64,000 bases of DNA from an uncultured Phycisphaera sp. (GCA_964501365.1 CAZCST010000003.1:1962-65961); one strand, 5' to 3'. Positions 44,796 to 46,947 are shown, numbered from the stretch's first letter. Numbers and translations are program-made. Notes: a model not told the origin generated them from the sequence alone.

Positions 44796-45450
44796 CGAAA
44801 TTTGTACGAAGGCGCGCATAGCTCGACGCATCATTCGACGTTCCACTTTCGTTCCATTTTCTTCAACTAGCGCGCTTCGCATGTCGTTTGCAAGCGCGAA
44901 AACAAAAAATTTTCAAATTTTTTTTGCTTGTCTTTTTTGACGCGCTTCAAGGAATGATCACGTTGATCAACGCGCGCATGTGGATCGCGTTCGGCAACGT
45001 GACCGGGACGTTGGAATCATGCGAGTCAATGCGATACGAAGAGCCGGAAACAGCATCATGGCAATTGCGGAACATTTCTCTTGCGTGTCCCTTCGTGTTG
45101 ATTCGGTCGTGCGATCGAGAGTCATGCTTACTCCGCCGCCTTCTCAAAGATTGCAAATCTCTCAATGATTTGCGGGGTTTTCTTGCACGATTCCCTCGCG
45201 TCACGTTCGTCGAAGTTGATGAATCGAGGCTCGCTGGTCGATAAAGACATCGTGCGTCAAGGCGGATGCGATCGTCGATCATGTTGTCCGGCGATTTGCA
45301 CAAACGCAGGATGCGAAACGATTCGTATGCCGTGCTGAGTATGTGCCACGCGATGTCGCTCGCGCAAAATTTTCGACGACTGGCCATCGGTTTGATGAGT
45401 TCGGGCGCGTGTAACCGACATTGAAAATCGCCTCAAAGGCAAAAAATCTT

Positions 45451-45478
45451 TTGACAGGCTCCAGTGAACGTGTAGTAT
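45451..45478 (+). promoter_or_regulatory. Near-consensus sigma-70-type promoter of the Lys-rich sORF
   Basis: TTGACA (45451-56), 16-nt spacer, TAGTAT (45473-78). The predicted TSS is about 20 nt upstream of the sORF ATG. Confidence 0.55.
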
Positions 45479-45503
45479 TTACTCAAGAAAGGAGGTGACG
45501 CTA

Positions 45504-45572
45504 ATGGCTAAGAAACGAAAGGCTGCCAAGTCTTCAAAGAAGAAGGCTAAGAAGTCCGCAAAGAAGAAGTAA
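45504..45572 (+). CDS. 22-aa lysine-rich small protein MAKKRKAAKSSKKKAKKSAKKK
   Basis: Canonical SD AAGGAGGTGA (45488-97) 6 nt before the ATG. Its own promoter lies upstream and a strong terminator about 110 nt downstream. It is below the length cutoff of the ORF track. Confidence 0.55.
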   Translation: MAKKRKAAKSSKKKAKKSAKKK

Positions 45573-45681
45573 GGTCGTGCCCTCCGCGTCGGGCGTGATA
45601 ACGCCGGATGATCACTGACGAAAGTCGCCACGGCCGTCGGTAATCCTGAGCGAGCGCCAAGCGGAGATGGCCAAAATGACG

Positions 45682-45730
45682 GAACGGAAGGTGTCGCATC
45701 GCCACGGCGACATCTTCCGTTCGTCTTTTT
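45682..45730 (+). terminator. Rho-independent terminator
   Basis: GAACGGAAGGTGTCGC (45682-97) pairs with GCGACATCTTCCGTTC (45707-22): 16 bp including one G-U. It is followed by GTCTTTTT. Confidence 0.8.
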
Positions 45731-45852
45731 ACGAAACCTGCGTTTGATTGTCTGAGTCCAACCTCTCCCTAATCCTCATCCCTTGTGCTTTTGAACCCCG
45801 AACTTGGCCTCCCTCTGAAGCCCCCCCCAATAGGGGTCGATAATATGTAGAT

Positions 45853-46947
45853 ATGCACCGGGTACTTTGCATCTGCGGGGCGCGGCCAAACTTCATGAAA
45901 ATCGCCCCTTTACTGACTGGTTTGCGACAGCGCGGCGGTATCGACGCGCAGTTGGTCCACACCGGCCAGCATTACGACGAAAAAATGAGCCGGTCGTTTT
46001 TCTCCGACCTGGGCATCCCGCAGCCCGACGTCAACCTCGAAGTCGGCAGCGGATCGCATGCCGTTCAGACCGCCGAAATCATGAAGCGGTTCGAACCGGT
46101 CTGCCTCGAACGCCGTCCCGATTGGGTGATCGTCGTCGGCGACGTGAACAGCACGATTGCGTGCGCCCTGGTGGCCGCCAAGTTGAACATCAAGGTCGCC
46201 CACGTCGAGGCCGGTTTGCGAAGCTTCGACCGCACCATGCCCGAGGAAGTCAATCGCGTCCTTACGGATGCGATCAGCGATTTGCTCTTTGTCAGCGAAC
46301 CCAGCGGCGTGGAAAACTTGCGAAAGGAAGGAATCGACGATCGCAAGATTCATCTCGTGGGAAACGTGATGATTGACACGCTGCTCCAGAACCGGTCGCG
46401 GGCCGACGAATCACGCATCGTGGAGGGATTGGGATTGCGGCCGCGACAATATGCCGTGCTCACTCTGCACAGACCAAGCAACGTGGATCGCCGCGAATCG
46501 TTCGAGCCGATCCTTAGTGCCCTGGAGCGAATCGCCCGCGATATGCCGATCGTGTTCCCCGTACACCCGCGCTCGCGCAAGAATATCACCTCGATGGGCC
46601 TCGATCCGCGCCTGGCCAAGGCCGCCAATATCAAACTGATTGAACCGCTGGGTTATCTGGATTTTCTCAAGCTGATGGCCGAATCCGCGATGGTGCTCAC
46701 TGATTCCGGTGGAATTCAGGAGGAGACCACGATATTGGGGGTTGCCTGCCTGACGCTCCGCGACAACACCGAACGGCCTGTTACCACCACCCAGGGAACC
46801 AATCGTATCGCAGGGAGCACGACCGAGGGTATCCTTCGAGCGTATGATACAGTGCGGAAGAACCCGCCGTCCGGCAAACGACCCGACCTGTGGGACGGCA
46901 AGGCCGCCCAGCGGATTGTGGATGTCCTGGTGAGATCGCTTTCATGA
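45853..46947 (+). CDS. wecB: UDP-N-acetylglucosamine 2-epimerase (non-hydrolysing)
   Basis: VLCICGARPNFMKIAPL, HTGQHYDEKMSRSFFSDLGIPQPDVNLEVGSGSHAVQTA, ..VLTDSGGIQEE... Confidence 0.92.
   Translation: MHRVLCICGARPNFMKIAPLLTGLRQRGGIDAQLVHTGQHYDEKMSRSFFSDLGIPQPDVNLEVGSGSHAVQTAEIMKRFEPVCLERRPDWVIVVGDVNSTIACALVAAKLNIKVAHVEAGLRSFDRTMPEEVNRVLTDAISDLLFVSEPSGVENLRKEGIDDRKIHLVGNVMIDTLLQNRSRADESRIVEGLGLRPRQYAVLTLHRPSNVDRRESFEPILSALERIARDMPIVFPVHPRSRKNITSMGLDPRLAKAANIKLIEPLGYLDFLKLMAESAMVLTDSGGIQEETTILGVACLTLRDNTERPVTTTQGTNRIAGSTTEGILRAYDTVRKNPPSGKRPDLWDGKAAQRIVDVLVRSLS

What the first reader, a model, noticed from the sequence alone, without database searches (positions are those of the whole stretch)
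45451..45730. Self-contained transcription unit for a 22-aa poly-lysine peptide (MAKKRKAAKSSKKKAKKSAKKK)
Everything needed for expression is present and close to consensus: TTGACA-16 nt-TAGTAT promoter, AAGGAGGTGA Shine-Dalgarno at optimal spacing, a 22-codon ORF (55% Lys/Arg, no hydrophobic core), a ~110-nt 3' region, and a 16-bp-stem terminator with a U tract.

The ORF is too short for the track and would be missed by standard annotation. Such extremely basic mini-proteins could be ribosome- or nucleoid-associated (in the style of Thx, bS22/bL36-like or histone-tail-like proteins), or the unit may primarily encode a regulatory RNA.
Basis: seen in the sequence. Interest (0 to 1): 0.6.

Follow-up and report, generated by a model that had tools for sequence, protein, structure and literature searches.

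The report
Hidden poly-lysine mini-gene, structured tail
The 22-codon poly-lysine reading frame is a real, unannotated gene: the shortest member of a family of highly positively charged, histone-H1-like mini-proteins found across Phycisphaerae planctomycetes, always followed by the same undescribed folded RNA tail; what the protein does is still unknown.

Summary
Observation confirmed. Window 45451-45730 holds a TTGACA-16-TAGTAT promoter, a 13-nt Shine-Dalgarno, a 22-codon ORF (45504-45572, MAKKRKAAKSSKKKAKKSAKKK), a 109-nt spacer and a 14-bp terminator with a T-run.

The unit is conserved as a single-copy gene across class Phycisphaerae (Planctomycetota). In 59 distinct homologues of 18-133 aa, K+R make up 61% of residues and there is no Asp, Glu, Asn, Phe, Trp or Tyr in 3184 residues. 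Third codon positions vary while first and second are kept, so the frame is under selection as a protein.

The SD is the exact complement of the last 13 nt of the genome's own 16S rRNA and occurs nowhere else in the 4.2 Mb.

The 3' UTR is a conserved structured RNA of about 150 nt. A long hairpin and the terminator hairpin both carry the invariant apical motif CGCCACGGC, with covarying stems. A covariance model of the terminator finds one copy per genome, in nearly every locus examined downstream of a poly-K ORF. There is no Rfam, Pfam or NCBIfam match.

Best reading: an abundant polycation of histone-H1/Hc2 or protamine type, whose mRNA carries a cis-regulatory, protein-binding 3' domain. Ribosomal-peptide and dual-function-RNA readings remain open. 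An attenuator is rejected.

The parts
45432..45450 (+). A/T-rich tract directly upstream of the -35 (possible UP element)
   Evidence: The sequence is ...ggcaaaaaatctt. The 20 nt upstream of the -35 average 65% A+T in 59 homologous loci, against about 58% G+C for the genome.
45451..45478 (+). Sigma-70-type promoter: TTGACA, 16 nt, TAGTAT
   Evidence: Scan. It is conserved at a fixed distance from the ATG: 60 of 62 homologues have the -35 and 59 of them a -10 at 16-18 nt. Transcription itself was not tested.
45486..45498 (+). 13-nt Shine-Dalgarno AGAAAGGAGGTGA, 5 nt before the ATG
   Evidence: It is the exact complement of the 3' end of the genome's own 16S rRNA (...GGATCACCTCCTTTCT). The 13-mer occurs only here and as the complement of the 16S gene in 4.2 Mb. 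GAAAGGAGGTGA is kept in nearly all homologues.
45504..45572 (+). Protein-coding ORF, 22 codons plus TAA: MAKKRKAAKSSKKKAKKSAKKK
   Evidence: Homologues of 18-133 aa share the N-terminus MAKK[RK]K.AKK. Third-position variation (majority fraction by codon position 0.81/0.81/0.52) is. There are 0 D/E/N/F/W/Y in 3184 residues of 59 homologues. It is the only such gene in the genome.
45573..45672 (+). 3'-UTR domain 1: extended imperfect hairpin whose tip is HP1
   Evidence: MFE folds of 20 homologues all place HP1 on top of a long stem. The RNAalifold consensus has long-range helices enclosing HP1, and 17 of 34 pairs show compensatory changes.
45614..45641 (+). HP1: ACTGACG-aaagt-CGCCACGGC-CGTCGGT; invariant motif at 45626-45634
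   Evidence: Anchored alignment A2 of 36 homologues: motif columns are invariant, the stem is 80% paired, and 4 of 6 pairs show compensatory change. 0 of 500 shuffles reach the observed score.
45682..45730 (+). HPT: terminator hairpin with the same apical motif CGCCACGGC (45700-45708), a purine-rich SD-like 5' arm (GGAAGGTG), and T-run 45726-45730
   Evidence: Alignment A1 of 35 homologues: the stem is 93% paired, 9 of 12 pairs are compensatory, and 0 of 500 shuffles reach it. Covariance model R1 gives one strong hit per genome in 34 of 41 relatives. In nearly every locus examined, the hit lies downstream of a poly-K ORF.

Best explanation
This is a real, translated, single-copy gene. It is the shortest known member (22 aa; about 21 aa and net charge near +13 if the initiator Met is removed, which is inferred) of a Phycisphaerae-wide family of 18-133-aa Lys/Ala/Thr proteins with no acidic residues.

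It is transcribed from its own near-consensus promoter as a short mRNA of roughly 270 nt (inferred). A maximal 13-nt Shine-Dalgarno probably drives efficient initiation (inferred). The product is most likely an abundant, intrinsically disordered polycation that coats or condenses a polyanion. DNA or the nucleoid is the first candidate, then RNA or ribosomes. It would work like the C-terminal tail of histone H1, chlamydial Hc2 or a protamine (inferred from composition only).

The conserved 3' UTR has a long hairpin and an intrinsic terminator, each presenting the invariant CGCCACGGC tip. I read it as a cis-acting domain that ends transcription, stabilises the message and offers two identical binding sites for a trans-acting factor that sets the level of this potentially toxic polycation. 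That factor could be an RNA-binding protein or the peptide itself. The structure and conservation are shown. The regulatory role and the ligand are inferred.
For: Gene and frame:
- The promoter, SD and ATG are conserved at fixed spacing.
- GCN/CGN third positions take all bases while positions 1 and 2 are kept.
- 59 distinct homologues contain 1737 Lys and 200 Arg but no Asp, Glu, Asn, Phe, Trp or Tyr. GAA/GAG are one transition from AAA/AAG, so their absence is telling.
- AAG is preferred over the slippery AAA (1295:442).

Spread:
- 24 of 41 relatives match by DNA.
- 39 of 42 exact-pattern hits among 185,579 species genomes are Phycisphaerae or Planctomycetota.
- Other families of the class carry 101-133-aa versions with the same terminator loop.

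Expression signals: the SD is the perfect complement of the last 13 nt of 16S rRNA and is unique in the genome.

3' UTR:
- The apical motif is invariant and the stems covary.
- CACGG occurs 2.0 times per UTR against 0.26 in shuffles.
- R1 finds one copy per genome in 25 of 27 high-quality relatives, in nearly every locus examined behind a poly-K ORF, including genomes where the ORF search had failed.
- The motif hairpins are not a genome-wide repeat.

H1/Hc2-like character: composition, repeat-driven length variation as described for Hc2 (PMC2848022), and weak sub-threshold hits to HC2 and H1-like models only.
Against: - There is no expression, proteomic or localisation evidence.
- The polycation function rests on composition alone.
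- Homology to Hc2 or H1-like families is not demonstrable. The best score is 18.3 bits against a 40-bit cut-off, and only for one 71-aa homologue. The window peptide has no hit at all.
- The genome already has two HU-family genes, so a nucleoid role is not needed to fill a gap.
- The conserved N-terminal decapeptide and the rRNA-complementary SD would fit a ribosome-linked role equally well.
- The ligand of the CGCCACGGC loops is unknown.
- A 22-aa peptide may behave differently from the 100-aa family members.
Confidence: 0.6

Rival explanations
1. The peptide is a small ribosome-bound protein, in the manner of bL37, bS22, bTHX or eL41. Its conserved N-terminal decapeptide would anchor in rRNA and the variable Lys tail would decorate the surface. 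The conserved 3'-UTR hairpins would be an autoregulatory mimic of its rRNA site.
For: - It is tiny, extremely basic and has maximal translation signals.
- MAKK[RK]K.AKK is the only conserved peptide segment.
- In other genera efp or der (EngA) lie nearby.
- Structured mRNA elements are typical of ribosomal-protein feedback (established knowledge).
- In the own genus, HP1 resembles a stretch of 5S rRNA at 16 of 21 positions.
Against: - Length runs from 18 to 133 aa with repeat expansion, which is unlike any fixed-pocket ribosomal protein.
- No NCBIfam, Pfam or PDB-sequence match even at E = 10.
- The 5S resemblance does not covary. G027, G028 and G006 have CUCGG, CAUGG and CGCGG in 5S, but their UTR loops stay CCACGG.
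- No CCACGG was found in the held part of the 23S. The 16S is only partly assembled and was not scanned for the motif.
- Synteny with translation genes is loose.
Confidence: 0.2
2. The unit is mainly a regulatory RNA, or a dual-function RNA. The ~150-nt structured 3' domain, possibly released as a 3'-UTR-derived sRNA, would act in trans through its two CGCCACGGC loops or titrate an RNA-binding protein. Alternatively, the 13-nt SD plus the (AAG)n tract would sequester 30S subunits or Hfq. The peptide would be secondary.
For: - In this genome the 3' UTR (about 160 nt) is more than twice the ORF length. Its loop motif is more strictly conserved than the peptide across the class.
- Several CACGG copies per UTR resemble multi-site protein-sponge RNAs.
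- The SD is the longest possible and unique in the genome.
- The terminator 5' arm is SD-like, GGAAGGUG or GGGAGGUG.
Against: - Strong protein-level selection (no acidic codons, codon periodicity) shows the peptide matters.
- No conserved target complementarity was found in tRNAs, 23S or 5S.
- The motif is not repeated elsewhere in the genome beyond chance.
- Complementarity between the SD and the terminator 3' arm is weak (mean z = -0.8) and absent in the own genus.
Confidence: 0.15
3. It is a leader peptide and attenuator. Translation of the Lys-codon run would report lysine or Lys-tRNA supply and control read-through of the terminator into wecB and the nucleotide-sugar genes downstream (45853 onward).
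For: In this genus the next gene is co-directional, about 280 nt downstream. A Lys-rich ORF followed by a terminator superficially resembles amino-acid attenuators.
Against: - The downstream gene is not conserved. In 20 of 46 loci it is a convergent gene on the other strand, and elsewhere it is parA, der or others.
- There are 109 nt between the stop and the terminator, and no alternative anti-terminator pairing is evident.
- The ORF length (18-133 codons) is not what a sensor needs.
- No lysine riboswitch or T-box was found.
Confidence: 0.03

Closest known systems
Chlamydial histone H1-like protein Hc2 (HctB; Pfam PF07382, NCBIfam NF038052) and Hc1 (HctA)
   Same: - A Lys/Ala/Thr-rich, acid-free, low-complexity polycation in a PVC-superphylum bacterium.
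- Length varies through different numbers of short Lys-rich repeats, as reported for Hc2 (PMC2848022).
- Synthesis of such a protein is expected to need tight post-transcriptional control, as HctA has through the sRNA IhtA (PMC3469542).
   Different: - No significant sequence match. The best is 18.3 bits against a 40-bit cut-off, for one 71-aa homologue, and the window peptide has none.
- It is 22 aa instead of 165-237 aa.
- It has its own conserved N-terminus, MAKKRK.AKK.
- It has a conserved structured 3' UTR with CGCCACGGC loops. I know of no counterpart for hctA or hctB (from my own knowledge; not tested here).
- DNA binding is untested.
Other bacterial H1-like Lys/Ala repeat proteins (Bordetella BpH1, Burkholderia H1-like NF038053, Pseudomonas AlgP, tails of mycobacterial HupB)
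   Same: (A/T)KKK-type repeats and strong positive charge. They are presumed non-specific nucleic-acid binders.
   Different: The match is sub-threshold only (12.8 against 80 bits). Those proteins are much longer or are tails on folded domains. Here the whole protein is the tail.
Very small basic ribosomal proteins: bL37, bS22, bTHX, eL41
   Same: 20-35 aa, Lys/Arg-rich, and often unannotated (the Borrelia ribosome paper PMC10618245 shows such proteins being missed).
   Different: Those have fixed length and specific sequence. This family spans 18-133 aa. There is no model or PDB match, and ribosome binding is untested.
Metazoan replication-dependent histone mRNA 3' stem-loop bound by SLBP (functional analogy only)
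   Same: An mRNA for a chromatin-type polycation that ends in a highly conserved 3' hairpin whose sequence, not just its pairing, is kept.
   Different: There is no sequence or structural relation: Rfam, which includes the histone 3' element, gave no hit at E <= 10. Here the hairpin is also an intrinsic terminator, a second copy of the loop sits upstream, and no binding protein is known.

Membership tests
Hc2 / HC2 (Pfam PF07382; NCBIfam NF038052) | Match to the family profile above its curated cut-off (40 bits for Pfam, 135 bits for NCBIfam) | tested here: not met
   The window peptide has no hit at E <= 10. The best family member (71 aa) scores 18.3 bits on PF07382 and 10.2 bits on NF038052. 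Four others of 40-98 aa and five of 101-133 aa have no hit.
Hc2 / HC2 (Pfam PF07382; NCBIfam NF038052) | Lys-rich short repeats whose number varies between strains or species | tested here: met
   The family ranges from 18 to 133 aa through (A/T/V/G)KKK-type repeats. The window copy has room for only about four such units.
Hc2 / HC2 (Pfam PF07382; NCBIfam NF038052) | Binds and condenses DNA | not testable with these tools
   Needs EMSA or nucleoid fractionation.
Burkholderia/Bordetella H1-like DNA-binding protein (NCBIfam NF038053) | Match above the 80-bit cut-off | tested here: not met
   12.8 bits for one 71-aa homologue; none for the window peptide.
Small basic ribosomal proteins (bL37, bS22, bTHX, bL36 and similar) | Match to the NCBIfam or Pfam model of one of these families, or to a ribosomal chain in the PDB | tested here: not met
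   0 families at E <= 10 in NCBIfam and Pfam. 0 PDB chains at E <= 10. HMMER's composition correction weakens this negative result.
Small basic ribosomal proteins (bL37, bS22, bTHX, bL36 and similar) | Near-constant length and sequence across the clade | tested here: not met
   18-133 aa within one class; only the first 10 residues are conserved.
Small basic ribosomal proteins (bL37, bS22, bTHX, bL36 and similar) | Physical presence in purified ribosomes | not testable with these tools
   Needs cryo-EM or MS of Phycisphaera ribosomes.
Intrinsic (Rho-independent) terminator | G+C-rich hairpin directly followed by a U-run | tested here: met
   The stem is 14 bp and the T-run is 45726-45730. The stem is 93% paired with compensatory changes in 35 homologues. 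Termination itself was not measured.
Amino-acid leader-peptide attenuator | A conserved co-directional regulated gene downstream, and mutually exclusive terminator and anti-terminator pairings coupled to the leader ORF | tested here: not met
   The downstream gene differs between genera and is convergent in 20 of 46 loci. There are 109 nt between the stop and the terminator.
Any Rfam 15 RNA family | cmscan match | tested here: not met
   Nothing better than E = 7 in window 44800-46000. Nothing at E <= 0.01 in 10 homologous loci.
Sigma-70-type promoter | -35 and -10 hexamers at 16-18 nt, conserved in position | tested here: met
   10 of 12 consensus positions match. 59 of 62 homologues keep both hexamers at a fixed distance from the ATG. 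The transcription start was not mapped.

The most novel reading that the evidence does not exclude
The poly-lysine gene and its 3' domain form a dedicated feedback module, a bacterial counterpart of the histone-mRNA stem-loop system. The two identical CGCCACGGC-tipped hairpins would be recognised by a specific factor, or by the conserved basic N-terminus of the peptide itself in the style of arginine-rich peptides on TAR or boxB hairpins. This would couple production of a genetically encoded 'protamine' to the state of the nucleoid or ribosome pool. Together with the look-alike mini-genes noted elsewhere in this scan, it would mean that encoded oligolysines are a widespread, overlooked class of major cellular polycations.
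Probability: 0.2. Interest if true: 0.8.

Novelty: new variant of a known kind. Interest (0 to 1): 0.55.

Why it matters
If the peptide is made at the level its signals suggest, Phycisphaerae carry an abundant polycation that standard annotation probably misses. None of the 17 family members I looked up is in a 15-billion-protein collection, though that does not show why they are absent. Trypsin-based proteomics would be expected to miss it too, because trypsin would cut it into very short Lys-ended pieces (my inference).

That bears on how planctomycetes compact their nucleoids and balance charge. The family runs from a 133-aa H1-like protein down to a 22-aa oligolysine, which offers a way to ask what minimal length still works.

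The 3' UTR adds a second, independent item. It is a conserved, single-copy structured RNA with an invariant loop motif, absent from Rfam, and it gives a concrete handle (pull-downs, loop mutants) on the post-transcriptional control of a histone-like protein in bacteria.

Tried and rejected
1. Protein-database homology gave nothing usable. The search for homologous proteins returned no hit with a 40-aa or a 133-aa member, probably because of HMMER's composition correction. Exact look-ups of 17 members found none. These searches say nothing about names or annotation.

3. Attenuator for wecB is rejected on synteny.

4. The CGCCACGGC hairpin as a genome-wide repeat or REP-like element is rejected. 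18 stem-flanked copies were found against roughly 28 expected by chance, and only the two at this locus have long stems.

5. Loop complementarity was checked against the 45 tRNAs (including both tRNA-Lys), the held part of 23S, and 5S. None was found.

6. 5S rRNA mimicry: the own-genus HP1 matches a 5S segment at 16 of 21 positions. That 5S segment varies (CUCGG, CAUGG, CGCGG) in genomes whose UTR loops stay CCACGG. Rejected.

7. The terminator 3' arm as an anti-SD that closes onto the gene's own SD: duplex energies are only slightly better than shuffles (mean z = -0.8) and worse than shuffles in the own genus. Not supported.

8. A conserved ORF in the 650-nt upstream tract: none, even within the genus.

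9. Literature searches for a described planctomycete poly-lysine or H1-like mini-protein found nothing.

Full report
**1. What is in the window**

- -35 TTGACA lies at 45451-45456. After 16 nt, -10 TAGTAT lies at 45473-45478.
- A Shine-Dalgarno follows. On inspection it is 13 nt long: AGAAAGGAGGTGA, 45486-45498.
- Five nt further on is ATG 45504. The 22-codon ORF ends at TAA 45570-45572 and encodes MAKKRKAAKSSKKKAKKSAKKK.
- After 109 nt comes a hairpin, GAACGGAAGGTGTC-gcat-CGCCACGGC-GACATCTTCCGTTC (45682-45722), then TTTTT (45726-45730).

The whole transcript folds better than shuffled versions (z = -3.55). The simple terminator scan missed the hairpin because its loop exceeds 8 nt. One promoter-like hit in 2 kb is not above chance by itself (0.7 expected).

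**2. It is conserved, and it is a protein-coding gene**

A DNA search of 41 relatives found the promoter-SD-ORF block in 24 of them. An exact-pattern scan of one genome for each of 185,579 species returned 42 loci. Of these, 39 are Phycisphaerae or Planctomycetota MAGs, including one labelled Phycisphaera mikurensis.

In all of them the ORF begins ATG GCN AAR AAR CGN AAR .... The GCN and CGN third positions take all four bases.

I then anchored loci on the RNA model of the terminator, so the choice of locus did not depend on the ORF sequence. The ORF picked within each locus was still required to be Lys/Arg-rich with GC at the second codon, so the test is only partly independent. The majority-base fraction is 0.81, 0.81 and 0.52 for codon positions 1, 2 and 3.

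The strongest argument is composition. The 59 distinct homologues run from 18 to 133 aa, 3184 residues in all. They contain 1737 Lys, 200 Arg, 682 Ala and 255 Thr. They contain no Asp, Glu, Asn, Phe, Trp or Tyr. GAA and GAG are a single transition away from AAA and AAG, so their complete absence shows selection on the translated frame for net positive charge. AAG outnumbers the slippery AAA 1295 to 442.

The own genome has only this one such gene.

**3. Expression signals**

Of 62 distinct upstream regions, 60 have TTGAC[AG]. Of those, 59 have TAnnnT at 16-18 nt, and the -10 ends 25-28 nt before the ATG in 53 of the 59. The 20 nt upstream of the -35 average 65% A+T.

The SD is the exact complement of the last 13 nt of the genome's 16S rRNA (...GGATCACCTCCTTTCT). 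In 4.2 Mb the 13-mer occurs only here and, as its complement, in the 16S gene itself. No other gene in the genome has so long an SD.

**4. The 3' UTR is a conserved structured RNA**

Printing the 3' UTRs of 46 homologues showed one motif, CGCCACGGC, twice in most of them:
- at the tip of a first hairpin, HP1 (window 45614-45641, motif 45626-45634);
- at the tip of the terminator hairpin, HPT (motif 45700-45708).

The stems differ between genera while the tips do not.
- HPT (35 sequences): stem 93% paired, 9 of 12 pairs with changes on both sides, 0 of 500 shuffles as good.
- HP1 (36 sequences): stem 80% paired, 4 of 6 pairs compensatory, 0 of 500 shuffles.

Single-sequence folds place HP1 on top of a long imperfect stem in every case. 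RNAalifold on 15 full UTRs recovers long-range helices around HP1 plus HPT, with 17 of 34 pairs compensatory. CACGG occurs 2.0 times per UTR against 0.26 in shuffles.

The HPT stem is conserved in sequence as well as pairing. Its 5' arm is always purine-rich and SD-like (GGAAGGUG or GGGAGGUG).

**5. ORF and RNA element travel together**

A covariance model of HPT (R1) gives one strong hit per genome in 34 of 41 relatives, and in 25 of 27 high-quality ones. In nearly every locus I examined, the hit lies 50-160 nt downstream of the stop of a poly-K ORF. That includes genomes where the ORF searches had failed.

In a 401-genome sample of the phylum only 5 genomes matched, 4 of them in the class. 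That search ran at reduced sensitivity.

Other families of the class carry 101-133-aa Lys/Ala/Thr or Lys/Ser/Thr proteins with the same GCCACGGC-tipped terminator. The window's 22-mer is therefore the short end of one class-wide family.

The motif hairpins are not a genome-wide repeat. No Rfam family matches here or in 10 homologous loci.

**6. What it is not**

- *Not an attenuator.* The downstream gene differs between genera and is convergent in 20 of 46 loci.
- *Not a demonstrable member of Hc2/HC2, the Burkholderia H1-like family, or any small ribosomal protein family.* The window peptide has no hit at E <= 10. The best homologue scores 18.3 bits against a 40-bit cut-off. There is no PDB sequence match.
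- *The loops are not complementary to any tRNA, to the held part of 23S, or to 5S*.
- *Not a 5S rRNA mimic.* The own-genus HP1 matches a 5S stretch at 16 of 21 positions. This fails a covariation test: 5S varies in genomes where the UTR loops do not.
- *The terminator 3' arm does not convincingly pair with the gene's own SD.* Mean z is -0.8, and the pairing is worse than shuffles in the own genus.

**7. Most likely mechanism**

Shown here: a conserved, single-copy, independently signalled gene under protein-level selection for extreme positive charge, and a conserved structured 3' UTR with two identical apical motifs, the second on an intrinsic-terminator-like hairpin.

Inferred: high expression; a disordered polycation that binds DNA, RNA or another polyanion like the histone H1 tail, Hc2 or protamines; and a 3' domain that terminates transcription, stabilises the mRNA and binds a factor (or the peptide) to control output.

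I put 0.9 on 'translated gene family'. I put about 0.6 on the whole statement, 0.2 on a ribosome-bound peptide, 0.15 on a primarily RNA-level function and 0.03 on attenuation. The genome also has two HU-family genes, so the peptide is not the only candidate nucleoid protein.

**8. Known or new**

Full-text searches found no description of such a planctomycete mini-protein or of the RNA motif.

The nearest described systems are chlamydial Hc2, whose size varies with its number of Lys-rich repeats (PMC2848022), and Hc1, which is controlled by the sRNA IhtA (PMC3469542).

Earlier notes of this scan (AI notes, not evidence) report the same kind of poly-lysine mini-gene in other Phycisphaerae and in other phyla. 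My results agree with them and add four points: the invariant CGCCACGGC loop pair, the class-wide link between ORF and terminator, the genome-unique 13-nt SD, and the acid-free composition statistic.

I rate it a new variant of a known kind: bacterial H1-like polycations, here reduced to an oligolysine with its own RNA domain.

**9. Limits**

Profile searches are blunt on low-complexity sequence. The phylum-wide RNA search ran with strict filters. The 16S and 23S genes of this MAG are only partly assembled.

Noticed in passing
window 44890-44927 (and 44796-45450 as a whole): A ~40-nt A/T-rich element (gcaagcgcgaaaacaaaaaattttcaaattttttttgc) sits about 600 nt upstream of the poly-K ATG. It recurs at a similar distance (-580 to -670) in several other genera. 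The ~500 nt between it and the poly-K promoter have no conserved ORF and are not alignable even within the genus. Most homologous loci have a similar 700-1000-nt 'empty' gap upstream.
   Followed up: partly
L008, L010, L011, L023, L029, L035, L064-L067 and others, directly after the terminator T-run: The T-run of the terminator is followed by a conserved GCGC (TTTTTGCGC) in most genera and even in distant families of the class, but not in the window's own genus (cgtctttttacg). The meaning is unknown.
   Followed up: no
L036 (Vicinamibacteria MAG), L039 (bin labelled Gammaproteobacteria), L041 (Patescibacteria MAG): Three non-planctomycete genomes carry the same SD and an MAKKRK.AK... poly-basic mini-ORF (21-34 aa), but with ordinary terminators lacking the CGCCACGGC motif. 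This could be convergence, transfer or mis-binning.
   Followed up: partly
L066, L067 (another family of the class): 103-121-aa Lys/Ser/Thr-rich versions of the protein, with the same GCCACGGC-loop terminator, sit directly upstream of a ParA-type ATPase gene (IAVINQKGGVGKTT...).
   Followed up: no
L018, L030, L046, L054, L060 (upstream); L013, L032, L035, L043 (flank): In several genera the nearest real upstream gene is elongation factor P, 700-1100 nt away. In others the GTPase Der/EngA flanks the unit. These are loose links to translation genes and are not conserved in the window.
   Followed up: partly
window 45614-45644 versus own 5S rRNA (G000 C7:44001-44106, minus strand): HP1 of this genus (GUCGCCACGGCCGUCGGUAAU) matches the 5S rRNA stretch GUCCGCACGGCCGAUGGUAGU at 16 of 21 positions. 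The match does not covary across genera, so I treat it as coincidence.
   Followed up: yes
window 45573-45600: In this genome a CCCUCC just after the stop codon can pair with the GGAGG of the SD in the MFE fold. One congener (L002) has CCUUUCC there, but other genera have nothing similar.
   Followed up: partly
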